64,000 bases of DNA from Candidatus Giovannonibacteria bacterium RIFCSPLOWO2_02_FULL_45_28 (GCA_001780725.1 MFIM01000005.1:2127-66126); one strand, 5' to 3'; positions 46,164 to 55,842 are shown, counted from the first letter of the stretch. Program-made: numbers and translations. Notes: generated by a model not told the origin, from the sequence alone.

Positions 46164-47813
46164 TTATGTTTTTCTAATAAGAAAATTGCCCATAACCAGC
46201 GCGTCAAGGCCGGTTGAACTAAAACAGCGAAAAGCGTCTTTCGGAGTCGCGACAATCGGCTCATTAGCGTCGTTAAAAGAAGTATTCAAAAGGACAGGAA
46301 TTTTTTTGCGTTTTTCAAATTCTTTAAGCAATTTGTAGCATCGTGGATTTTGCGCGCGGTTTACGGTTTGCATGCGTGAACTTCCGTCAACGTGCGTAAT
46401 CGCCGGCAAAAGCGATCTAGCGCTCTTTTTGACGTAAAAAGTAAGCAGCATAAAAGGGCTTTTGGCGTAATTTTCAAAATATTTTTCCCCGTCTTCCTCT
46501 GCCACGACTGGCGCAAACGGCCGCCAAGGCTCGCGATGTTTGACATAATTGTTAACCTTGTCGTTCATGCCGTGCATCGACGGATCCGCGAGAATTGAGC
46601 GGTTGCAAAGCGCGCGCGGTCCCAGCTCCATGCGCCCCTGAAACCAGCCGACTATTTTACCTCCCGCCAGCAAACCGGCGGTAATTGCTTCAATGTTTTC
46701 GTGAAATTCATATCGCATTTTGGTTTCTTTAAGAAATTTTTCAATTTCGTTATTGCTAAACTCCGGGCCAAAATAAGCGTGCTCCATTTTAAAATTCGGC
46801 GATCCGCCAAACCGCGCCGCGGCTTCCAAAGCGGCGCCCAAAGCCGTCCCGCTGTCGTTGGCGGCTGGCTGTATAAAAATCTTGTCGCAAAAATCCGCGT
46901 TGGCGATTTTGCTGTTCATATTGCAATTTAGGGCAACGCCTCCCGCAAGGCAAAAATTGCGGATTCCGGTGAAAGCGTGTGCTTCGCGCGCTAAATTGAA
47001 AATGGATTCTTCCAATCCTTGCTGCAAGCTCGCGGCCAAATTCTTATGCTCCTCGGTCAAATCTTCTTTGGCGCTTTTTCGCTCCAGATGGCCGTACAAA
47101 CCGGAAACTTTGTCGCGGTCAATATTATAATCATTATGCGATCTGATGTTTAAAATTGAAGAAAAATCATGTTTGGGAGAGCCGTAACTCGCAAGCCCCA
47201 TAGTTTTGCCTTCGCCATGCGTGCCAAGATTCAAAAAATTTGTAACGCGGCTATATACCAAACCGATTGAGTTTCTTTTTTTTCCCCCCAAAAATCCATC
47301 CAGTTTAATATCCCAAATTTTTTTAATTTTATTTCCGCGGCCGACGAAAAAAGTAAGTGTTTCTATCTCCCCGGACGCGTCAATCGTTAAAATATTGGCT
47401 TCAGAAAAACCGGAGCACCGGTAAGAACTCGCGGCGTGCGCAAGGTGGTGCGGGATATAAACCACTCTCGCATTAGGAAACTCGCGCTTCGCGTTTCTTC
47501 TCCAATATTCAAAAATTCCGGCGTTTATAGCGCGCTTTCCAAAAGCTCTCGCGCCAAAACCGCTAAACGGATGTTTAAAGGCCAAATAAGGGTCTTGGGA
47601 TACGGCAATAATATCAATGTTTTTTTTATCAATCCCGCCCTCTTTCAGGCAATACTCAACAGCTTGATAAGGATAGCCGCGAGAATGCCGGACCCGGTTA
47701 AACCGCTCCTCCTCCGCAGTGGCCGCTAAAACGCCGTCTTTCACTAAAGCGGCCGCGCTGTCATGCAACCACGCCAGCATCCCGGGAATTTGATTGATGC
47801 CCAAAACATTCAT
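46164..47813 (-). CDS. carbamoyltransferase, NodU/CmcH/NovN family
   Basis: 549 aa with N-terminal MNVLGINQIPGMLAWLHDSAAALVKDG...EEERFNRVRH, typical of the Carbam_trans_N family. Confidence 0.7.
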   Translation of the reverse strand: MNVLGINQIPGMLAWLHDSAAALVKDGVLAATAEEERFNRVRHSRGYPYQAVEYCLKEGGIDKKNIDIIAVSQDPYLAFKHPFSGFGARAFGKRAINAGIFEYWRRNAKREFPNARVVYIPHHLAHAASSYRCSGFSEANILTIDASGEIETLTFFVGRGNKIKKIWDIKLDGFLGGKKRNSIGLVYSRVTNFLNLGTHGEGKTMGLASYGSPKHDFSSILNIRSHNDYNIDRDKVSGLYGHLERKSAKEDLTEEHKNLAASLQQGLEESIFNLAREAHAFTGIRNFCLAGGVALNCNMNSKIANADFCDKIFIQPAANDSGTALGAALEAAARFGGSPNFKMEHAYFGPEFSNNEIEKFLKETKMRYEFHENIEAITAGLLAGGKIVGWFQGRMELGPRALCNRSILADPSMHGMNDKVNNYVKHREPWRPFAPVVAEEDGEKYFENYAKSPFMLLTFYVKKSARSLLPAITHVDGSSRMQTVNRAQNPRCYKLLKEFEKRKKIPVLLNTSFNDANEPIVATPKDAFRCFSSTGLDALVMGNFLIRKT

Positions 47814-48568
47814 GTTATTTTTTGTGGCGCCGCTTCAACTCCTATGGCGCGGCCGAAATGATTCCCCAATAAAGCATTGAGCGCCTTGCCGACTATGGGC
47901 GGCATAAAATAACTTAGCAAAAATATTGAGAATCCGTATACTTGAATAGAACGTATCTCAAGTCCCGATGACATGCAAAGATCAATAACTTGTTGTTTTG
48001 ACATTTGCCGCCAATAAGGATGTTCATAACGGTCCTCCCAGTGAATCCGTTTTTTAATGCAGGCCGGTACAATTTTTGAAAGTTGCGGAACAGTACGAAA
48101 TATGGGAGTGATAATTCTCTGAATGAAAACGTCCGGAGCGTATTTATGGGAAATGATAAGCTTAATCGTGCCGTCTTTTTTGCACCACCGACGAAATTGT
48201 TCAAGCACTATGCGCGGATTCGGCGTGTGGTGCAAAACATATGTGCAAAATATATAATCAAATGAATTGTCCGGGAGCGATACTGTTTCCAGATCGCACG
48301 CGATGAGCGTGGGGCGAAAACCGAGCGCGTTTGCTTGTTGCCGCACAAACTCTATAGAATTTTCAGATTGATCGATACCGGTTACATCTGCGCCATAAAA
48401 TAAATAATCAAACAAGAAAAAACCGGAACCGCATCCGGCATCAAGCACTTTTTTGCCGCGAATTTGTTTTGGGAGGTCCAACTTTTGCAAAATACCGAAA
48501 TTGGACATCGGATGTTTATTGTAAAATGCGCGAACGTTATTTTTTATTTTCTCTGCTGTTTGGTTCAT
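47810..48568 (-). CDS. class I SAM-dependent methyltransferase
   Basis: 252 aa with VLDAGCGSGFFLFDYL motif I and VTGIDQS post-I. Confidence 0.65.
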   Translation of the reverse strand: MNQTAEKIKNNVRAFYNKHPMSNFGILQKLDLPKQIRGKKVLDAGCGSGFFLFDYLFYGADVTGIDQSENSIEFVRQQANALGFRPTLIACDLETVSLPDNSFDYIFCTYVLHHTPNPRIVLEQFRRWCKKDGTIKLIISHKYAPDVFIQRIITPIFRTVPQLSKIVPACIKKRIHWEDRYEHPYWRQMSKQQVIDLCMSSGLEIRSIQVYGFSIFLLSYFMPPIVGKALNALLGNHFGRAIGVEAAPQKIT

Positions 48569-48584
48569 AGAATGCAGGCCGGTG

Positions 48585-48641
48585 TTAACTCAACCATTTT
48601 TCGAAATCGGCTAAAATTCGCGCTATCAATAAAAATTTTCA
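48585..48641 (-). pseudogene. decayed mini-copy (fused 5' and 3' termini, interior deleted) of the transaldolase gene at 49662..50396
   Basis: 48585..48616 matches 49664..49695 (ttaactcaaccatttttc[g/a]aaatcgg..aaaa, 3' end of tal). 48616..48641 matches 50371..50396 (tt[c/t]gcgctatcaataaa[a/t]attttcat, the first 9 codons MKIFIDSAN). The two segments are fused out of frame. Confidence 0.6.
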
Positions 48642-49052
48642 TATGGCTGCTTTAACGTAAGAAATAAACTTTTTTACTTGCGGCAAATTATTTTGCAAAA
48701 CGTCGTAAACAACATCCACTCTCAAATCGTGATAATCATGCGCCAAGGCGTTGCGGAATCCGACAATCTTATGAAAATCGGCCAAAAACTCATTTGGGAT
48801 AATTTTTTCTTCTCCCAAAATATCCAGCGCCTCGCGCATTGTGGTTGGCTTCCGAAAATTTTTATAAGCCACCACCGCCTCCGCTAAATCTATAACTGCT
48901 TGAGCAACGATATAAAGCTCACGTTCAACCGCGCTCCTAATCATTAGATTAGTTTCCAAATCTTTTAAAGAATACGTTTTGTAGCTTTCGGCAACTTCTA
49001 GATGCTTGATAATATAACTTATTTGATTTTCTATAATTTGGAGATTGCTCAT
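48639..49052 (-). CDS. hepT: HepT-like toxin (DUF86, nucleotidyltransferase substrate-binding/HEPN)
   Basis: 137 aa with the RNALAHDY (Rx4HxY HEPN) motif. 4-nt overlap with the upstream mntA. Confidence 0.7.
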   Translation of the reverse strand: MSNLQIIENQISYIIKHLEVAESYKTYSLKDLETNLMIRSAVERELYIVAQAVIDLAEAVVAYKNFRKPTTMREALDILGEEKIIPNEFLADFHKIVGFRNALAHDYHDLRVDVVYDVLQNNLPQVKKFISYVKAAI

Positions 49053-49453
49053 TTTGCCCGTGTTAAATTATATTTTTTAAGCAGATAGATAAAATCAAAA
49101 TATTCATTAAACACTCTAGGCTCTAAAAGCAACCTGTTTGGTTCGCGCTCAAAAATTATCTTGCCGCTAGAAATAATTTGATATTTAAGCTCTGGCGATT
49201 CAATGTCATTCATGCTATGGACATCAACCTTATTTGTTGCGAGCATTTTTGAAATTTCCGAAGAAAAATAGAAAACCATCTGTCCTCTTTTTATGGGACT
49301 TTTTTCCGTAAAGTAAATTCCAAAATCGTAATCGCTCATCGGCCCAGTTTTACCGCTTGCTTGGGAGCCGAAAAGGTAAACGAGGCCGACAGCCGGTTCG
49401 GCTTCAAACACAGCTGATAATTTATCTTTTATCTCTTTAACAGCCTTACTCAT
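49049..49453 (-). CDS. mntA: MntA-like nucleotidyltransferase antitoxin
   Basis: 134 aa with LFGSQASGKTGPMSDYDFGIYF (GS...DxD minimal nucleotidyltransferase motif). Confidence 0.7.
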   Translation of the reverse strand: MSKAVKEIKDKLSAVFEAEPAVGLVYLFGSQASGKTGPMSDYDFGIYFTEKSPIKRGQMVFYFSSEISKMLATNKVDVHSMNDIESPELKYQIISSGKIIFEREPNRLLLEPRVFNEYFDFIYLLKKYNLTRAK

Positions 49454-49661
49454 GTCGCATTTATAGTAAAATAATTTTGACTATTTTACAAGCTATTGAC
49501 AAAAATAGGCCTCTTATGCTAAGCTGTTTTTAGAATAAACGGAGGCAACCTATGGAACAAGTTGAAGCAAGAGGTATCCTTGGCCACCGCGCGATAAACT
49601 CCCAGTTCTCGAAAGCCCAGAGTCGGTCGCATGACCTCAGTTTTTTATTTTTTAATTATTT

Positions 49662-50396
49662 TTAACTCAACCATTTTTCAAAATCGGTCAAAAATTGATT
49701 GACGACTTGGTCGGTTTTGAAATGGGAAATCATGTCCGGGAAAAACTTCGGCGGAACAGTCACAATATGCGCGCCCGCCAAACGAGCATCCCGAACGTCT
49801 ACGACGCTCCGCATACTGCCTGCGATGATTTCTGAATTGATTTTGCTCTCGTCAAAAATCCGGCGCGTAGCGCTTACAACCCTAATAGGATCAAAATCTG
49901 CGTCGTCAAGAGCTTTTTTGGCTTTAGTTTCCTCGCGTTCCTTTAACATGGCAGCATCTGTTCCGCCGTCTCTTATGCGGCCCCAAAAAAGACTGACGTA
50001 TTTTGCGCCAGCGCGCGCCGCCATAACCGCCTGGGTCACGCTCATGCAAGCGGTACAGTTTACAGAGATTCCCATTTCGCTCAATTTTTTGATTGTTTCC
50101 AATTCTCCCCAGCCCACTTGAACTTTAATGCTTATTTGCGGATAACCGAACTCCCTAATAAACTCTCTGGCTTGTTTTAAAATAATTTCTTTGTCTCTGG
50201 AAAAAACTTCCACGCTCAAATGAATGCCGGGTTTGTATTTATTGATTAAATCTATTATTGCTCCGATATGAGATTCAAACGAACCTTTCGGTTCCTTGGC
50301 CAAAAGCGAAGGATTGGTGGTTATGCCCTCGGCGAAACCTCGCTTTAGGGCTTCTTCAATGTCCGTTAAATTTGCGCTATCAATAAATATTTTCAT
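49662..50396 (-). CDS. transaldolase / fructose-6-phosphate aldolase (TalC/FSA subfamily)
   Basis: 244 aa with MKIFIDSANLTDIEEALKRGFAEGITTNPSL and a Schiff-base lysine region, the short TIM-barrel transaldolase type. Confidence 0.7.
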   Translation of the reverse strand: MKIFIDSANLTDIEEALKRGFAEGITTNPSLLAKEPKGSFESHIGAIIDLINKYKPGIHLSVEVFSRDKEIILKQAREFIREFGYPQISIKVQVGWGELETIKKLSEMGISVNCTACMSVTQAVMAARAGAKYVSLFWGRIRDGGTDAAMLKEREETKAKKALDDADFDPIRVVSATRRIFDESKINSEIIAGSMRSVVDVRDARLAGAHIVTVPPKFFPDMISHFKTDQVVNQFLTDFEKWLS

Positions 50397-50958
50397 GAAT
50401 ATATCTTACTGCTTCTGATAAATTTGTCACGCGCGCATCGGCTTTTAAATTTTTATTTTGCGCGCAATCTATTAAAATTGTTTTGCATCCGGCCGCTTGG
50501 CTGGCTTTTATATCGCTTTCCGAGTCTCCGACCATAAAAGATTTTTTTAAATCAATCCCCCATTTTTGCGCGGCCGAAATCAGCATTCCGGGCTTCGGTT
50601 TTTTGCATTCGCACCCGTCGTCTCGCCCATGCATACAAACAAAAATATCATCCAGCGACAGTTCTTTAATATCAGCCATTATTTTATCATATTCTAATTG
50701 AGACATATTCCCGTAAACTACGTCCGGCTGATTGGTCACCAAAATTTTTAAAAAACCAAGCTTGCCGAATTCTTCCAAGGCCACAGCAACACCATCTTTA
50801 CAATGAAACTCGTCGTGCCTCCACGGAGCAGTCCAGCGCACCTTCTTGTCTTGGACAAAAACATTTTCGCCTCGATCCACTGTGTCATTTATCACTCCGT
50901 CTCTGTCCAAAAATACTGCGCGCCTTAAACCAGTTTCGGTTTTTGGATTCCTTCCCAT
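50380..50958 (-). CDS. gmhB: HAD-IIIA phosphatase, GmhB-like (D-glycero-D-manno-heptose 1,7-bisphosphate phosphatase)
   Basis: AVFLDRDGVIN (DxD motif I), VTNQ, ...GDSESDIKA; a CxHx..CxC zinc-binding insert (CMHGRDDGCEC) as in GmhB. The internal ATG at 50958 was chosen. Confidence 0.6.
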   Translation of the reverse strand: MGRNPKTETGLRRAVFLDRDGVINDTVDRGENVFVQDKKVRWTAPWRHDEFHCKDGVAVALEEFGKLGFLKILVTNQPDVVYGNMSQLEYDKIMADIKELSLDDIFVCMHGRDDGCECKKPKPGMLISAAQKWGIDLKKSFMVGDSESDIKASQAAGCKTILIDCAQNKNLKADARVTNLSEAVRYIHENIY

Positions 50959-51572
50959 TTTCCTTCGGTCATTTTTAATTCCGGATGAAAAACTATCGCG
51001 TGCCAAAGCACAGCTTGCCACGATTCGGCGTGCGCCGTTACGTTTTCCGGGTTTACCACCGGCACCAAAACACAGGCGTCCGCCACTTTGGCGGTGTACC
51101 CGCCGTCGCGGCTCACTATGCCTATTATCTTGGCGCCGCGATCTTTAGCGTGAATTAACGCGTGAACAATATTAGCGCTGATATTTTTTTCCGCGTTTCC
51201 GCCGCCGACGGAAAACACCATCACCGCGTCATTTGGATTTAAATGGTTATGCTCCAGCCACTTCACAAAAACCGAATCCCAGCCGTCGTCGTTAACGCGG
51301 GCGGTGAGCTCGGCAACGTTGTCGGTTGGAGAATAAGACTGGATATGGGCGATTTTCCGAAAATCATTCACGGCATGCGAGGCGTTGGCCGCAGATCCGC
51401 CAACCCCCAAAATAAAAAGCCGGCCTTTCTTTTCCCTCACGCCCTTTAAAATATCAACGGCGCAAGAAACTGCCTCTCGGTCAATCCGGCGGGTAATCTC
51501 GGCTACCTCACTCAAATAGTTCTCTATATATTCGCGGTGAAGCATATTTTTATAACTCCCGAAGCTCCTCAA
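50925..51572 (-). CDS. gmhA: SIS-domain phosphoheptose isomerase, GmhA-like
   Basis: 215 aa with GRLFILGVGGSAANASHAVNDF ... VFSVGGGNAEKN, matching GmhA/DiaA. Confidence 0.65.
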   Translation of the reverse strand: MRSFGSYKNMLHREYIENYLSEVAEITRRIDREAVSCAVDILKGVREKKGRLFILGVGGSAANASHAVNDFRKIAHIQSYSPTDNVAELTARVNDDGWDSVFVKWLEHNHLNPNDAVMVFSVGGGNAEKNISANIVHALIHAKDRGAKIIGIVSRDGGYTAKVADACVLVPVVNPENVTAHAESWQAVLWHAIVFHPELKMTEGKWEGIQKPKLV

Positions 51573-52275
51573 AGTATTCTCTTGTCCTTTCTAAGTATTC
51601 CAAAGTGTCTGCTCCGAAAACAGCCTCTGTCGGAGAAAGAATGTGGGTTTGAATCGGAATGCCTTTTTGGAGCAAATCGGGAAAAACATGTTTTCCAAAA
51701 TCATAAAAAGCGCCAGCTGGAATATATTTAAAAATATCCGGTTTTAAAATATATACGCCCGCATTAACAAAATTAATGTCAGGCCGAGACGCGCCCTCCC
51801 AAAAATCTTTTACGAAACCGCTATAGTCAATCTCTACAACGCCCCCTGCGGCTCCGCTGTTCGGATTAATTTTCCTGTCAAATAACGCAATCAAGGCCGG
51901 ACTGCGAGGATCCGGCGAAGCGCTTAAAATTTTCCCGAAATCCATATTAAAAACATTGTCGCCGTAAACCACCAAAAACGGTTCTTTTAATTTTCCTTCC
52001 AGCCTCTTTACGGCCCCTGCGATACCAACCAGGTCTTTTTCATAAAAATATTCAACCTTAAGGCCGAACCGGGACCCGTTACCAAAATAATCTGAAATTT
52101 TATCCGCCAAGTAATGCGTGTTTAAAATAACATCCCTTATTCCGGCTCTTTTTAACTGCTGCAGTGTGCGCTCTAAAATATTTTTACCGGCAACTTCTAT
52201 CAAAGGCTTGGGTGTGTCATTTGTCAAAGGCCGCAAACGAGTGCTCAACCCTCCTGCTATAATTACAGCTTTCAT
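51550..52275 (-). CDS. sugar-1-phosphate nucleotidyltransferase (HddC/RmlA-like)
   Basis: 241 aa with MKAVIIAGGLSTRLRPLTNDTPKPL, the NTP_transferase signature. Context (gmhA, gmhB) favours a heptose-1-P guanylyltransferase, but an RmlA-type role is not excluded. Confidence 0.6.
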   Translation of the reverse strand: MKAVIIAGGLSTRLRPLTNDTPKPLIEVAGKNILERTLQQLKRAGIRDVILNTHYLADKISDYFGNGSRFGLKVEYFYEKDLVGIAGAVKRLEGKLKEPFLVVYGDNVFNMDFGKILSASPDPRSPALIALFDRKINPNSGAAGGVVEIDYSGFVKDFWEGASRPDINFVNAGVYILKPDIFKYIPAGAFYDFGKHVFPDLLQKGIPIQTHILSPTEAVFGADTLEYLERTREYFEELREL

Positions 52276-53231
52276 AATTTTGGAATAACGTATTTTTTAA
52301 TGTAATCTACGCTCTTTTTCAGCCCTTCCTCCAAACTAGTTTTCGGTTTCCAACCCAAAGCCCTCGCCTTGGAAATATCGGCCTCCGTCCTTTCTACGCC
52401 GAAACTCAATGAGGGGCGCAGTTCCGGCTCCACCTTCGTGCCCAACAGCTTTTGTGTCGCATCCAAAAGTTCCTTAAAACTGGTGGCGATACCGCTGCCC
52501 AAATTATACACTTGGCCGTTTGTAAAACTATTTTCCATCGCTAAAAGATGAAAATCGTTAATATTGTCCACGTAAATATAATCTTTGCTGCGCTCTCCTT
52601 CGCCGTATAAAATCGGCTTCTCTCCTCGCAAAAGCTGGATAATAAATTCGCTCACGATTGGTCGGTCGGTTCTTCGCCAGTCTTGCCGTGGGCCATAGAC
52701 ATTAAAATACCGCAGACCAGCAATATTCATCTTGTGGTATTTTACGTAACTTTGCGCAAAAAAATGGCCGGCGGCTTTAGAATCCGCATAAAAAGTTTCC
52801 GGCTGCATTTTTTCTTCTGTTGTCGGGAAGGTTTTTAAGCCGCTATAAACATCCGAACTTTCCGCGTAGATAATTTTTCTTACATTAGCCCTCTTCGCGG
52901 CTTCTAAAACGTTCACCGTGCCGACGACGTTGATGTCCGCTGTGTCCACCGGATCTCTTTGGCAGTCTGAAAGGCAATTTTTAGCCGCCATATGAAAAAC
53001 CGTATCTACGCCCTCAAATACCGGATAAATATCTTTGGAACGGATATCCAGTTTATGAAATTCCGCTTCCGGCGCAATTTGTTCTTTTAGACCGTACGAC
53101 AAATTATCTATCCCGATTACCTTATGGCCTGCGGCAATAAGCCTGTCGGCAAGATTGCTCCCTATAAAACCGGCGATGCCGGTAACTAAAACTTTTTTCT
53201 GATTCATAATCTTGATAAAACGTTTCTGCAA
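52272..53231 (-). CDS. NAD-dependent sugar epimerase/dehydratase (extended SDR)
   Basis: VLVTGIAGFIGSNL...YADSK. The start may be the internal ATG at 53207. Confidence 0.7.
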   Translation of the reverse strand: MQKRFIKIMNQKKVLVTGIAGFIGSNLADRLIAAGHKVIGIDNLSYGLKEQIAPEAEFHKLDIRSKDIYPVFEGVDTVFHMAAKNCLSDCQRDPVDTADINVVGTVNVLEAAKRANVRKIIYAESSDVYSGLKTFPTTEEKMQPETFYADSKAAGHFFAQSYVKYHKMNIAGLRYFNVYGPRQDWRRTDRPIVSEFIIQLLRGEKPILYGEGERSKDYIYVDNINDFHLLAMENSFTNGQVYNLGSGIATSFKELLDATQKLLGTKVEPELRPSLSFGVERTEADISKARALGWKPKTSLEEGLKKSVDYIKKYVIPKL

Positions 53232-53810
53232 CTACTTATCTTTTAGCTTCTTAAATTTTTCCTCCAGCCAACCAAGCACGAGAAGCTGGTCGTCAACTGT
53301 AGCACGACGGATTTGTGACAATAAATGGATCTGGTCGGGTTTCGGTAGTGCGGTATTTTGCAAGCCCTCGTTACAGTTGGAACAAATGGCTTTGAGATTG
53401 CTCGGTTCATCTGAGCCGCCTTTTGATTTATCTATGATATGCCCAATAGTAAGGCGTATTTTTCTATCGGGATGAAATGGGTCAATATCAGAGGCAGCCA
53501 TTCCGCAACTCTGGCACGTAAAACCATTTCTGTCTAAAACAAAGGCTCTCGTTTCTTTAGATATGCCTCTGGCAAAAGCTGGTTTTCTTTTTTCTGTTAA
53601 CAAAATATATTGTCCGGGTTTTAAATCAGCTTTGTCTTTGTGTGAGATGATCTGATAACCATCCTCATCTCTAAGCTCACGCACGCGACGTGCCCACTCT
53701 GCCGCCCAACCAGAAGCTTTCTGTAATTGCCTTGAATCAACGATGTCGCCCACATTAGTCAAAAGAAAATTTAGTATTTTTTGTTTTGAACTTTTTTTAA
53801 ATGTAGTCAT
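53232..53810 (-). CDS. HNH-nuclease-domain protein, candidate restriction endonuclease of an R-M pair
   Basis: 192 aa with a C-terminal CQSCG...HIIDKSKGGSDEPSNLKAICSNCN (zinc-bound HNH). Immediately downstream of, and co-oriented with, a C5 DNA methyltransferase. Confidence 0.5.
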   Translation of the reverse strand: MTTFKKSSKQKILNFLLTNVGDIVDSRQLQKASGWAAEWARRVRELRDEDGYQIISHKDKADLKPGQYILLTEKRKPAFARGISKETRAFVLDRNGFTCQSCGMAASDIDPFHPDRKIRLTIGHIIDKSKGGSDEPSNLKAICSNCNEGLQNTALPKPDQIHLLSQIRRATVDDQLLVLGWLEEKFKKLKDK

Positions 53811-53811
53811 T

Positions 53812-54801
53812 TTAGGATTCTAACGCTTTTTTAATAGCGAGGCCAACCGCATGAGCAACCGGGGGCGGGAATGCGTTGCCGATTTGCTTATACGCAGTCG
53901 TTTTTGGGCCAACAAAGTGCCACCAATCTGGAAATCCTTGTATGCGGGCGGCCATTTTAACAGTAATTTTAGGTATATGATTTTTGGATTCCTTGGCAGA
54001 GGGAGCCTCATCAGCAATGCCGATACCGTTAACGGATAATTTAAGCCATTGTGCTCGTGTCCGTGTTGGACCAAGGTCGGGGCCTCCGTGTTTTACAGAG
54101 CCACCGACAATTGTGGGGCCAATGTCAGCAGCTTTCTCGGCCCATGACTCGGCATGTTTCCATCCGTTTTTAACCATAAGATCTTTTAGGGTTTCGCCAA
54201 CTGTTTTTTTGCCTATCTTTTTTTCAGGCCAACTAAAGTTTTCAGCATACTTTTTTTGAAGACCAACTAAAACAAAACGTGGTCTGAGTTGCGGTACTCC
54301 AAAATCTGAAGCATTGAGTATGGTCATAAAAATTTTATAACCCATTTTTTCAAGCCGAGATTGTAATTTATTTCTGTACTCAACAAACTTTGCAGACATA
54401 AAGCCTGGTACATTTTCCAAGAGAACGGCTCGCGGTCGCGCTTCATCAATTATCCTAAGAGCTGTCGGGAATAAGTCACGCTCGTCTTTTTCTCCTAACT
54501 GTTTACCTGCAAAAGAAAAGGGAGGGCAAGGAACACCGCCAGCGATAAGGTCAACTCCCGCAAAGTCCCCGCCTGAGAGCGTTTTAATATCTTGTTTGAT
54601 TACATTCCAATAAGGTCGGTTGAATCGCAATGTTTCGCAAAATCGTGGATCAATTTCTACAACAGCAATAGGTTCGAAACCAGCCAGTTCAAGACCCAAT
54701 GCCTGACCGCCCCCACCAGCACACAGCTCAAGAACAATCGGCTTTCGGTACCCTCTTTTTAATACATATTGGTGTGTCGGCTCAGCTAATATTACAGTCA
54801 T
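53812..54801 (-). CDS. DNA (cytosine-5)-methyltransferase
   Basis: Motif I LELCAGGGGQALGLE, motif IV GGVPCPPFSFAGK, motif VI LLENVPG, motif VIII QLRPRFVLVG and motif X IGNAFPPPV. Confidence 0.8.
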   Translation of the reverse strand: MTVILAEPTHQYVLKRGYRKPIVLELCAGGGGQALGLELAGFEPIAVVEIDPRFCETLRFNRPYWNVIKQDIKTLSGGDFAGVDLIAGGVPCPPFSFAGKQLGEKDERDLFPTALRIIDEARPRAVLLENVPGFMSAKFVEYRNKLQSRLEKMGYKIFMTILNASDFGVPQLRPRFVLVGLQKKYAENFSWPEKKIGKKTVGETLKDLMVKNGWKHAESWAEKAADIGPTIVGGSVKHGGPDLGPTRTRAQWLKLSVNGIGIADEAPSAKESKNHIPKITVKMAARIQGFPDWWHFVGPKTTAYKQIGNAFPPPVAHAVGLAIKKALES

Positions 54802-54831
54802 AAAGTTAGTATATCATTTTTACTTCATAAA

Positions 54832-55842
54832 TTATTTTTTATAAATCCTTTCCACTATTTTTAAAGCCTGATATCCGTCCTCTCCCGAAGGCCGCGGCGT
54901 CCTCTTCTCGCGAATCGCTGATATAAACTCTTGCAATTCTTTCGCCAAAGATTGGTTTTTGTCCGCGCCGCAAAAAAATTCTTTTTCTTTCGGCGCGTCA
55001 AAATAATTTTTGCTTCTTAGACCGAGGGTCAGTTTTTCTTTCCCATATCCATATGGCACATTGCCTAATCCTTCTATCCGAATATAACCTAGCGTCCCGT
55101 AAATCTCAAAATTATGAACAGGATCCCAATTTGTCCAGCTTACATGAATTGAAGCCGTTTGATTTCTTTTGTTTTTAAGAATTAAAAAAGCGTTGTCATC
55201 CACCGATGAATTCCAGTAAAGATTTTCGGCAAATCCGCAAATATCCCGGAAGTTCCCCAAAAACATCCGGCAAAGATCTATCATATGAACACCCTGATCC
55301 AAAAGCTCTCCCCCGCCACTGACATTTTTATTTTGCCGCCATTCTTTTTCATAACCCAAACGTCCGCCGAACCCGTACCTGGCCCTTATAAATAAGATGT
55401 CGCCGATTTTTTTAGCTTTAATCAATTTGTCCGCCAAAAGATAGCTCGGATGGAAGCGATGATTAAAACCAACCATATAAGACAGATGGCGCTTTCCGGC
55501 AGCCTTTACTGCTTCGGCCAACTCCCCGGAGTTTACGCCGGCTGGTTTTTCACAAAGGACATGTTTTCCGGCTTTCAGCGCCTCTATTGAAAGCGGCGCT
55601 AAAAATTTATGCGGAACTGCGATAACTACCGCATAAATATCTTTCATTTTTAACAGTTGCCGCGGCTCCGAAAATGCTTCGCAATTTTTAAACTTGCTGG
55701 CCAATTCCTTTGCACCGAGAAAATTTTGGTCGGCAATGGCCCGCAAAGACGCTGCCCCGCACATTTTTAACGCGCTTGCCCAGCGGCTGCCCATGCGTCC
55801 CGCGCCGATTAAACCGAAATTATATTTTTTCTTACCAATCAT
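54832..55842 (-). CDS. Gfo/Idh/MocA-family oxidoreductase
   Basis: 336 aa with NFGLIGAGRMGSRWA N-terminal Rossmann and EKP motif. Confidence 0.7.
   Translation of the reverse strand: MIGKKKYNFGLIGAGRMGSRWASALKMCGAASLRAIADQNFLGAKELASKFKNCEAFSEPRQLLKMKDIYAVVIAVPHKFLAPLSIEALKAGKHVLCEKPAGVNSGELAEAVKAAGKRHLSYMVGFNHRFHPSYLLADKLIKAKKIGDILFIRARYGFGGRLGYEKEWRQNKNVSGGGELLDQGVHMIDLCRMFLGNFRDICGFAENLYWNSSVDDNAFLILKNKRNQTASIHVSWTNWDPVHNFEIYGTLGYIRIEGLGNVPYGYGKEKLTLGLRSKNYFDAPKEKEFFCGADKNQSLAKELQEFISAIREKRTPRPSGEDGYQALKIVERIYKK

What the first reader, a model, noticed from the sequence alone, without database searches (positions are those of the whole stretch)
48585..49661. HepT/MntA toxin-antitoxin pair flanked by a decayed mini-copy of the neighbouring transaldolase gene
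Directly visible: 48585..48616 repeats the last ~32 nt of tal (49664..49695) with 3 mismatches, and 48616..48641 repeats the first 26 nt of tal (50371..50396) with 2 mismatches. This remnant therefore consists of the tal start (MKIFIDSAN) fused out of frame to the tal 3' end, with about 680 bp of interior deleted. The HepT (RNALAHDY) / MntA (GS..DYD) pair and a 208-bp AT-rich spacer lie between the remnant and the intact tal. This looks like the scar of a tandem duplication with deletion, or of a recombination-mediated insertion of the TA cassette, and marks a mobile addiction module lodged in the heptose operon. The spacer also contains a plus-strand TTGACA box and a 37-codon ORF that I do not consider real.
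Basis: seen in the sequence. Interest (0 to 1): 0.55.

Follow-up and report, generated by a model that had tools for sequence, protein, structure and literature searches.

The report
Toxin-antitoxin cassette beside displaced transaldolase stub
A horizontally acquired HepT/MntA toxin-antitoxin cassette sits just after the transaldolase gene of a Giovannonibacteria sugar operon, followed by a 58-base stub of a second, different transaldolase allele; this is a recombination scar of a known kind, not a new system.

Summary
Window 48585-48616 repeats the tal 3' end (49662-49693, 29/32) and 48614-48642 repeats the tal 5' end (50368-50396, 27/29). No such matches occur in shuffled sequence. The two pieces share a 3-nt junction, so 677 bp of tal interior is missing.

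MntA (49049-49453) and HepT (48639-49052) pass the NCBIfam type VII equivalog cut-offs, keep both catalytic motifs and evolve under purifying selection (omega about 0.1).

The interpretation needs refining.
- The stub is not a decayed local copy. Four of its five differences from tal are synonymous (P=0.002), so the two tal copies diverged as working genes.
- The 847-nt cassette (promoter, MntA, HepT) is 87% identical in two other Patescibacteria lineages, while the flanking gmhA-gmhB-tal is 77% identical. Synonymous differences (pS) are about 0.4 per site for the cassette and 0.78 (saturated) for tal. The cassette was therefore transferred horizontally.
- In one of those lineages HepT lies 5 kb from tal yet is again followed by a tal 3' fragment plus a copy of the window-type MntA promoter.

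Best reading: recombination with foreign DNA produced two tal copies flanking the cassette, and the redundant copy was then gutted by a microhomology deletion. This is an ordinary kind of event, with one curious recurrence.

The parts
49662..50396 (-). Intact transaldolase / fructose-6-phosphate aldolase family gene (tal, 244 aa). It is the last gene of the conserved gmhA-gmhB-tal module. Its first 29 nt and last 32 nt are the repeat partners of the stub.
   Evidence: Pfam TAL_FSA 142 bits. gmhA-gmhB-tal synteny in 21 related loci. Nucleotide homology to L005 and L006 stops at the tal stop codon.
49454..49661 (-). 208-nt spacer between tal and MntA. The central ~150 nt has no counterpart in any locus fetched. 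The last ~47 nt are the cassette promoter region.
   Evidence: No Rfam family reaches its threshold. Fold z-scores are -0.9 and -0.05. blastn finds only positions 162-201 of the spacer in other lineages.
49461..49492 (-). Promoter-like element P (CTTGTAAA-N8-AATTATTTTACTATAA) with a perfect 8-bp inverted repeat, GTAAAATA-N8-TATTTTAC, at 49466-49489. It forms the left end of the conserved cassette core.
   Evidence: Unique in the window, 0 matches in shuffles. Among 113 loci it is found only upstream of this MntA family, plus one extra copy downstream of HepT in L005-type loci. Promoter function is inferred.
49049..49453 (-). MntA, the MNT-domain adenylyltransferase antitoxin (134 aa). It carries the GSX10DXD motif (GSQASGKTGPMSDYD).
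   Evidence: NCBIfam MntA_antitoxin 71.6 bits against a cut-off of 60. Pfam Polbeta and NTP_transf_2. PDB 7ae2_B. omega 0.09-0.17.
48639..49052 (-). HepT, the HEPN RNase toxin (137 aa). It carries the RX4HXY motif (RNALAHDY). Its start overlaps the MntA stop (ATGA). Its C-terminus reads ..KAAI* where relatives read ..KAAVGL*.
   Evidence: NCBIfam HepT_toxin 105 bits against a cut-off of 60. PDB 6m6u, 5yep and 7ae2. Most homologues are 139 aa. Junction sequences.
48646..49492 (-). Conserved cassette core (P + MntA + HepT to codon ~135), 847 nt. This is the unit shared with other lineages.
   Evidence: 87.2% identical to L005:11671-12517 and 87.4% identical to L090:2749-3596, with unrelated flanks.
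48614..48642 (-). Stub, 5' piece: the first 29 nt of a tal allele (MKIFIDSAN). Its ATG overlaps the HepT stop.
   Evidence: 27/29 identical to 50368-50396. Both differences are synonymous.
48585..48616 (-). Stub, 3' piece: the last 32 nt of a tal allele (..LADFEKWLS*). It lies 16 nt upstream of the methyltransferase start.
   Evidence: 29/32 identical to 49662-49693. Two differences are synonymous and one is T>A.
48565..48642 (-). 25-codon ORF created by the out-of-frame fusion (MKIFIDSANFSRFRKMVELTPACIL*). It has an ATGA overlap with the HepT stop and an ATGA overlap with the methyltransferase start.
   Evidence: Translation and any coupling role are inferred, not shown.
47810..48568 (-). Class I SAM-dependent methyltransferase, the first gene of the variable glycan region downstream. 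It overlaps the carbamoyltransferase start by ATGA.
   Evidence: Pfam Methyltransf_11. Its orthologues are never next to tal.
49552..49665 (+). 37-codon plus-strand ORF with a GGAGG upstream. Probably not a gene.
   Evidence: The only hit among 1.84 billion representatives is itself.

Best explanation

The host is a Candidatus Giovannonibacteria genome. Its conserved gmhA-gmhB-tal module is followed by a variable set of surface-glycan genes, and the tal 3' end is the synteny breakpoint.

Foreign DNA from a related Patescibacteria lineage recombined here. It carried a tal allele, a spacer, the cassette's own promoter P, MntA and HepT. On the upstream side the join was homologous, in or before tal. 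On the downstream side it was illegitimate and fused HepT, minus its last three codons, to the start of the other tal copy. This is the homology-facilitated illegitimate recombination (HFIR) or 'gene displacement' topology. A Campbell-type integration of a tal-bearing circle would give the same product.

The intermediate had two diverged tal genes flanking the cassette. The downstream, redundant copy then lost 677 bp between two TTT triplets. That left 29 + 32 nt, which is short enough to make loss of the cassette by repeat recombination rare.

Functionally, MntA should AMPylate the Tyr of the HepT RX4HXY motif and so hold the RNase inactive. The pair is transcribed from P and reads on into the methyltransferase and carbamoyltransferase genes. 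The 25-codon fusion ORF bridges HepT to the methyltransferase through ATGA overlaps.

Shown: the repeats, the gene identities and motifs, the cassette boundaries, the divergence contrasts, and the absence of the cassette at this site in relatives. Inferred: the order of events, which tal copy is the immigrant, promoter activity, toxin activity and translational coupling.
For: - Repeats are specific and non-random.
- TA identity: NCBIfam equivalogs above cut-off, both motifs present, PDB homologues 6m6u, 5yep and 7ae2, omega 0.08-0.17.
- Foreign origin of the cassette: it is 87% nt identical to L005 and L090, against 77% for gmhA-gmhB-tal. pS is 0.37-0.43 for the TA genes and 0.77-0.78 (saturated) for tal.
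- Only 1 of 21 related gmhA-gmhB-tal loci has the cassette within 6 kb, and there it lies 5 kb from tal.
- More distant cassette relatives sit in unrelated contexts with no flank homology.
- Stub against intact tal: 4 synonymous and 1 non-synonymous difference, P(>=4/5 synonymous)=0.002 under random mutation. The copies therefore diverged as functional genes.
- The junction shares a 3-nt overlap.
- HepT is 137 aa against the family norm of 139 aa, and the change lies exactly at the junction.
- WIN-L006 and WIN-L005 homology ends at the tal stop codon.
- Synonymous divergence between the window and L005 steps from ~0.50 in gmhB to 0.72-0.91 across tal. This is compatible with the intact tal arriving with the cassette.
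- HFIR-type displacement that leaves orphaned 3' gene ends is documented for T6SS effector and Rhs loci (PMC5361080).
Against: - No exact empty site (tal directly followed by this methyltransferase) was found. The methyltransferase orthologues lie in other contexts, so the ancestral state at this junction is inferred.
- The pS step at the gmhB/tal boundary has a smaller counterpart in the control pair L005-L006 (0.59 to 0.67), so it is only suggestive.
- The stub is no closer to the L005 or L006 tal than the intact gene is (only 8 synonymous sites), so which copy is resident cannot be decided.
- HFIR, Campbell integration, and recombination between two differently placed cassettes all predict the same end product.
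- The origin of the central 150 nt of the spacer is unknown.
- Toxin and antitoxin activity are untested, and one population variant has a frameshifted MntA.
Confidence: 0.6

Rival explanations
1. Recombinase-free integrative cassette. The unit [tal 3' end - spacer - P - MntA - HepT (- tal 5' end)] exists as a circle or tandem repeat. It integrates next to tal by RecA-dependent recombination through the short tal-derived arms it carries. The stub is then cargo of the element rather than debris of the host gene.
For: The window and L005-type loci are circular permutations of one map. The window reads tal3'-sp-P-MntA-HepT-tal5'-tal3', flanked by 32-nt tal repeats 1077 nt apart. L005 reads P'-MntA-HepT-tal3'-sp-P, flanked by P repeats 949 nt apart. 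The extra P copy in L005 is 39/40 identical to the window's P, while the cassettes themselves are 87% identical. Both tal fragments that follow HepT encode ..LADFEKWLS*, an ending seen in none of the 120 tal homologues listed. Integration through either arm would leave tal intact.
Against: Only two lineages show tal fragments. L090 and five more distant cassettes have none. The two fragments have different breakpoints and differ at 7/30 nt. The L005 fragment is closest to L005's own tal (4/36 mismatches), as expected for displaced host DNA. Ala occurs at that position in about 10% of tal homologues, so the match could be chance. No circular or tandem form was seen in any contig.
Confidence: 0.15
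2. Purely local event. tal was tandemly duplicated in this genome, the TA cassette landed between the copies, and the second copy was deleted internally and has since drifted neutrally.
For: The end product (tal - insert - tal stub) is what a tandem duplication followed by a deletion would give. The junction microhomology fits replication slippage.
Against: Four of five differences are synonymous in frames the stub no longer uses (P=0.002). With pS 0.5 between the copies, a neutrally drifting 58-nt stub of the same age should carry many non-synonymous-type changes, yet it has one. The cassette is demonstrably foreign.
Confidence: 0.1
3. The stub is retained because it is useful. The 25-codon ORF passes ribosomes from the HepT stop to the methyltransferase start, which has no Shine-Dalgarno sequence. 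The particular deletion was therefore selected to keep the downstream glycan genes translated.
For: There is an unbroken chain of ATGA overlaps: MntA>HepT>mini-ORF>methyltransferase>carbamoyltransferase. No terminator-like site lies between HepT and the methyltransferase. No GGAGG precedes the methyltransferase start.
Against: The chance that the fusion frame ends at the ATGA is roughly 1 in 3, times the chance of meeting no earlier stop (about 15% overall), so it is not significant. The ORF is not conserved in the other lineage that carries a tal fragment. This idea explains retention, not origin, and is compatible with the best explanation.
Confidence: 0.1
4. Assembly artefact: a mis-join of strain variants in a metagenome assembly created the short duplicated tal ends.
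For: One unrelated scaffold (L111) does show an N-gap duplication artefact downstream of tal.
Against: The identical structure, including all five mismatches, is present in independent assemblies from NCBI, ENA and JGI made with different assemblers. There is no gap, and the stub differs from tal, so it is not a collapsed or duplicated k-mer path.
Confidence: 0.01

Closest known systems
Type VII HepT/MntA (HEPN/MNT) toxin-antitoxin systems: Shewanella oneidensis SO_3165/3166 (PDB 5yep, 6m6u; PMC7641770) and Aphanizomenon flos-aquae (PDB 7ae2)
   Same: Two overlapping genes with MntA first. HepT has RX4HXY and MntA has GSX10DXD. Both pass the NCBIfam equivalog cut-offs, and sequence matches to the solved structures cover the catalytic regions.
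   Different: Sequence identity to the characterised pairs is low (E-values 1e-11 and 1e-3). The host is a Patescibacteria (CPR) genome. The last three HepT codons were replaced at a recombination junction. Activity is untested.
Homology-facilitated illegitimate recombination and sequential gene displacement, which leave orphaned 3' gene ends (Vibrio cholerae T6SS effector-immunity arrays, Rhs C-terminal displacement; PMC5361080 and references therein)
   Same: A conserved upstream gene block acts as the anchor and the downstream content is variable. A displaced fragment of the old gene is left after the incoming module, the junction is illegitimate, and the incoming module is a toxin-immunity type pair.
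   Different: Here the displaced gene is a metabolic enzyme, not a toxin. Both its start and its end survive, fused by a second deletion. The mechanism is inferred from sequence only.
Serotype or glycan-locus switching by recombination in conserved flanking genes (O-antigen and capsule loci). This comparison rests on my own knowledge.
   Same: The conserved module (gmhA-gmhB-tal) abuts a highly mosaic glycan gene set, and homology between genomes stops exactly at the last conserved gene.
   Different: The event left a duplicated gene stub and brought a TA cassette rather than cleanly swapping glycan genes.

Membership tests
[quoted passage not shown] | HEPN-domain toxin with the RX4HXY RNase motif, whose Tyr is the AMPylation site | tested here: met
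   RNALAHDY in HepT. Pfam HepT-like 100 bits, NCBIfam HepT_toxin 105 bits (cut-off 60). The motif aligns to RNIAVHDY of PDB 6m6u.
[quoted passage not shown] | MNT-domain nucleotidyltransferase antitoxin with GSX10DXD | tested here: met
   GSQASGKTGPMSDYD. NCBIfam MntA_antitoxin 71.6 bits (cut-off 60). It aligns to GSRATGNINANSDWD of PDB 7ae2_B.
[quoted passage not shown] | Bicistronic operon, antitoxin first, genes overlapping | tested here: met
   MntA 49049-49453 and HepT 48639-49052 overlap by ATGA.
[quoted passage not shown] | HepT is toxic and is neutralised by MntA-catalysed AMPylation | not testable with these tools
   Only indirect support: omega 0.08-0.17 for both genes across three lineages.
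HFIR / gene-displacement scar | The inserted DNA is foreign, meaning younger than the divergence of the host genes on either side | tested here: met
   Cassette 87% nt identity and pS ~0.4, against flanking module 77% and tal pS 0.78.
HFIR / gene-displacement scar | One border in continuous homology and the other an illegitimate junction with no or short microhomology | tested here: inconclusive
   The downstream junction (HepT codon 136 joined to the tal start) is clearly illegitimate and truncates HepT. The upstream crossover is only suggested by a pS step at gmhB/tal.
HFIR / gene-displacement scar | The displaced fragment derives from a different allele than the surviving gene | tested here: met
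   4 of 5 differences are synonymous, pS 0.5 and pN 0.02, P=0.002.
Local tandem duplication with neutral decay | Differences between the copies are distributed as random mutations | tested here: not met
   Only 14.8% of random changes in these codons would be synonymous, yet 80% of the observed ones are.
Transposon / integron cassette / integrative element | A recombinase gene, terminal inverted repeats or an attC-like site at the cassette borders | tested here: not met
   No transposase or integrase within +/-6 kb. No inverted repeats at the borders. No Rfam or structured element in the spacer. No relative in IMG/VR.

The most novel reading that the evidence does not exclude
The promoter-MntA-HepT unit, together with short pieces of the conserved tal gene, behaves as a recombinase-free mobile cassette. 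It circularises through its flanking direct repeats and re-integrates by host homologous recombination beside tal or beside a resident copy of itself. The tal start-plus-end stub serves as a pair of homology arms that never disrupt the host gene, and the toxin-antitoxin pair penalises loss of the cassette. The window and the L005-type loci would then be two linearisations of the same circle.
Probability: 0.12. Interest if true: 0.6.

Novelty: new member of a known kind. Interest (0 to 1): 0.32.

Why it matters
This is a clean, datable example of how a selfish toxin-antitoxin module enters a streamlined CPR genome that has no obvious mobile-element machinery. It enters by recombination at the edge of a conserved sugar-precursor module, and it leaves a stub of the displaced gene.

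The case shows that the substitution pattern of a 58-nt scar can separate allelic displacement from local duplication. It also documents that the surface-glycan operon of these bacteria is a mosaic that accumulates defence or addiction modules: this TA pair, plus a type II restriction-modification pair 4 kb upstream.

The recurrence of tal fragments after the same HepT in a second lineage hints at a circular or tandem intermediate. That is worth a targeted look, but on present evidence the locus is ordinary biology.

Tried and rejected
- Rfam at gathering threshold on the whole window, and at E<=10 on 48500-49750: nothing credible.
- tRNA/tmRNA scan: none.
- RNA folding of the spacer on both strands: not better than shuffles.
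- The 37-codon plus-strand ORF: no homologue among 1.84 billion representatives, so it is rejected as a gene.
- Search for an exact empty site through orthologues of the downstream methyltransferase (P0242, P0243, P0246): all lie in unrelated glycan contexts.
- The closest tal homologue on short contigs (P0004): tal is followed by a membrane protein with no TA, and one scaffold has an N-gap artefact.
- Metagenome scan with HepT: only 5 loci, nothing new.
- IMG/VR scans with HepT and with the promoter motif: no hits, so there is no evidence for a phage vehicle.
- P as a generic promoter: rejected, because it occurs only with this cassette.
- Whether the stub is closer to L005 or L006 tal than the intact gene is: uninformative, with only 8 synonymous sites.
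- The 21/26 similarity between an internal HepT segment and the tal 3' end (D3) as a recombination substrate: no junction maps there, so it is treated as probable chance.

Full report
**Source and layout.** The window is from Candidatus Giovannonibacteria bacterium RIFCSPLOWO2_12_FULL (GCA_001780605.1, contig MFHX01000021.1), a Patescibacteria/CPR genome from the Rifle aquifer. All genes in the region lie on the minus strand. In the order of transcription they are:
- GFO-type oxidoreductase
- Dcm methylase and HNH endonuclease
- epimerase
- sugar-phosphate nucleotidyltransferase
- gmhA (SIS isomerase)
- gmhB (HAD phosphatase)
- tal, 49662-50396
- a 208-nt spacer
- MntA, 49049-49453
- HepT, 48639-49052
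- the 58-nt stub, 48585-48642
- a SAM-dependent methyltransferase, 47810-48568
- carbamoyltransferase, GT2, acetyltransferase and aminotransferase

**Observation check.** The repeat finder returns 48585-48616 against 49662-49693 (29/32) and 48614-48642 against 50368-50396 (27/29). Each arm, searched with up to 3 mismatches, hits only itself and its tal partner in 64 kb, and nothing in 100 shuffles. On the coding strand the stub reads ATGAAAATTTTTATTGATAGCGCGAATTT|TAGCCGATTTCGAAAAATGGTTGAGTTAA. The two arms overlap by TTT, the reading frames differ by +1, and 677 nt of tal interior are missing. The structure is identical in independent NCBI, ENA and JGI assemblies, which rules out an assembly artefact.

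**The toxin-antitoxin pair.** HepT scores 105 bits and MntA 71.6 bits against the NCBIfam type VII equivalog models, both with a cut-off of 60. HepT has RNALAHDY (RX4HXY) and aligns with S. oneidensis HepT (PDB 6m6u, 5yep) and the A. flos-aquae HEPN toxin (7ae2). MntA has GSQASGKTGPMSDYD (GSX10DXD) and aligns with the 7ae2_B antitoxin. The genes overlap by ATGA. In characterised members MntA poly-AMPylates the motif tyrosine of HepT and so blocks its RNase activity (PMC7641770). That this pair works the same way is inferred. Comparisons among three lineages give omega of 0.08-0.17 for both genes, so both are maintained by selection.

**The cassette is mobile and younger than its host genes.**
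- Among 21 loci with the conserved gmhA-gmhB-tal module, what follows tal is different almost every time. Only one other lineage (L005, Parcubacteria GW2011_GWC1_45_13, with identical contigs L085-L089 and L093) has this TA pair within 6 kb, and there it lies 5 kb downstream of tal, between an NTP-transferase and a UbiA-family gene.
- A third lineage (L090) has it between a different methyltransferase and the same UbiA gene.
- More distant cassette relatives (58-83% aa identity) sit in unrelated contexts with no flank homology.
- The shared nucleotide block runs from window 49492 to 48646 (847 nt): a 32-nt promoter-like element P, MntA, and HepT up to codon ~135. It is 87% identical to L005 and L090, while gmhA-gmhB-tal is 77% identical to L005 and L006.
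- The proportion of synonymous differences (pS) is 0.37-0.43 for the TA genes and 0.77-0.78 (saturated) for tal.
- P (CTTGTAAA-N8-AATTATTTTACTATAA, containing the inverted repeat GTAAAATA-N8-TATTTTAC) is unique in the window. Among 113 fetched loci it occurs only with this cassette.
- No recombinase, terminal inverted repeats, structured RNA or viral relative accompanies the cassette.

**The stub is not a decayed local copy.** Of the five differences from the intact tal, four are synonymous in the original tal frames (ATT/ATA, GCG/GCA, TTA/TTG, TTC/TTT) and one changes Thr to Ala. This gives pS 0.5 and pN 0.02. Only 14.8% of random single-base changes in these codons would be synonymous, so P(>=4 of 5 synonymous) = 0.002. 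The two copies therefore diverged while both were functional genes, to about the same extent as the same codons differ between the window and L005. The stub has spent little time as a pseudogene. This argues against a local tandem duplication followed by drift. It argues for recombination between two diverged tal alleles, one resident and one incoming.

**The junctions.** Relatives' HepT proteins are 139 aa and end ..KAAVGL*. In the window HepT is 137 aa and ends ..KAAI*, and the divergence starts exactly where the tal start piece begins. This is therefore an illegitimate junction that cost HepT three codons. Nucleotide homology between the window and both L005 and L006 ends at the tal stop codon. 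The tal 3' end is thus the boundary between the conserved module and the variable glycan genes, the natural place for a homologous anchor. Synonymous divergence between the window and L005 rises from about 0.50 in gmhB to 0.72-0.91 throughout tal. That would fit the intact tal having arrived together with the cassette. A control pair (L005-L006) shows a smaller rise in the same direction, so I treat this as suggestive only.

**Proposed history.**
1. Foreign DNA carrying tal-spacer-P-MntA-HepT recombined at the locus. The join was homologous upstream and illegitimate downstream, at the start of the other tal copy. This gave tal-TA-tal.
2. The redundant downstream copy lost 677 bp between TTT triplets.
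3. The remaining 29- and 32-nt repeats are short, so loss of the cassette by repeat recombination is rare, and the TA pair would further penalise loss.

This is the topology of homology-facilitated illegitimate recombination and of the 'sequential displacement' described for T6SS effector and Rhs loci, which also leave orphaned 3' gene ends (PMC5361080). Campbell-type integration of a tal-bearing circle gives the same product, and I cannot separate the two.

**A recurrence that is not fully explained.** In L005-type loci the orthologous HepT is followed by TTTACCAA and then a 36-38-nt tal 3' fragment (L005:12536-12571). The fragment is in frame, encodes QFLADFEKWLS*, and has 4 mismatches to L005's own tal, 3 of them synonymous. 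After it come a short hairpin-containing spacer and a second copy of P that is 39/40 identical to the window's P. The UbiA gene follows.

L090 lacks this 108-nt patch: its HepT-TTTACCAA is joined directly to AATTGTTAATC-UbiA. A window-type junction (tal 3' end - spacer - P) must therefore have existed in or near the L005 lineage as well. The two arrangements are circular permutations of one map:
- the window is flanked by tal 3' repeats;
- L005 is flanked by P repeats.

Both tal fragments that follow HepT encode ..LADFEKWLS*. That ending is absent from the 120 tal homologues listed, although Ala occurs at that position in about 10% of them. Two successive displacement events can explain this, and so can a circular or tandem cassette intermediate. 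I give the latter, more novel reading about 12%.

**Functional side-notes (inferred).** The out-of-frame fusion creates a 25-codon ORF, MKIFIDSANFSRFRKMVELTPACIL*. Its ATG overlaps the HepT stop and its TGA overlaps the methyltransferase ATG. With the MntA/HepT and methyltransferase/carbamoyltransferase overlaps this makes a chain of four ATGA junctions. No terminator-like site separates HepT from the methyltransferase. The cassette promoter may therefore also feed the downstream glycan genes, and the mini-ORF may preserve translational coupling. The frame coincidence is not statistically remarkable, and the ORF is not conserved in L005.

**Verdict.** The locus is a horizontally acquired, apparently functional HepT/MntA cassette beside the eroded remnant of a second tal allele. 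This is a new example of a known kind of recombination scar, not a new system.

Noticed in passing
window 53210-54823 (Dcm 53812-54801, HNH 53232-53810): A type II restriction-modification pair (PADLOC MTase_II and REase_II) is a 1614-nt insertion between the GFO oxidoreductase and the epimerase, relative to the Giovannonibacteria locus L006. It is flanked by a 7-nt duplication, TTATGAA (54824-54830 and 53203-53209), which is the start of the epimerase gene. This is a second selfish or defence module in the same operon, again with a duplicated gene start at its border.
   Followed up: partly
L092 (JGI Ga0209416_1031851), corresponding to window 49334-49353: A contig from the same population carries a 20-nt deletion in MntA, between AGCG repeats, that frameshifts the gene at the GSX10DXD motif while HepT remains 100% identical. 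It is either a natural antitoxin-null variant or an assembly error.
   Followed up: partly
L091 (JGI Ga0209323_10040986), corresponding to window ~48141-48216: The same population contig has a 76-nt deletion inside the methyltransferase gene downstream of the stub.
   Followed up: no
window 48769-48794 versus 49675-49700: An internal HepT segment (NEFLADFHK) is 21/26 nt identical to the tal 3' end (NQFLTDFEK), with a core TTTTTGNCCGATTTT. The stub carries the HepT-like GCC (Ala) codon at the equivalent position. This is probably chance, but it is a possible microhomology between the two genes.
   Followed up: partly
window 49466-49489 (minus strand), within promoter element P: A perfect 8-bp inverted repeat, GTAAAATA-N8-TATTTTAC, spans the putative -35 to -10 region of the MntA promoter. 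It is partly conserved in L005 and L090 and is a candidate operator for autoregulation.
   Followed up: no
window 47810-49453: Four consecutive ATGA start/stop overlaps link MntA, HepT, the 25-codon fusion ORF, the methyltransferase and the carbamoyltransferase.
   Followed up: partly
window 49662-55842 compared with L005 and L006: The operon is a mosaic at synonymous sites. GFO, epimerase and NTP-transferase are closest to L006 (pS 0.52-0.56). gmhA and gmhB are closest to L005 (0.54-0.59). tal is saturated against both (0.77-0.78). Within the cassette, MntA is closer to L090 and HepT to L005.
   Followed up: partly
window 49500-49661 (central part of the spacer): About 150 nt between the tal stop and the cassette promoter have no counterpart in any locus fetched, no Rfam match and no significant fold. 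The plus strand has TTGACA, GGAGG, a 37-codon orphan ORF and a T-run. The origin of this segment is unknown.
   Followed up: partly
L111:1460-1760: A scaffold of a related population shows an N-gap with the tal end and the next gene's start duplicated on either side. This is a scaffolding artefact from strain variants, not biology.
   Followed up: yes
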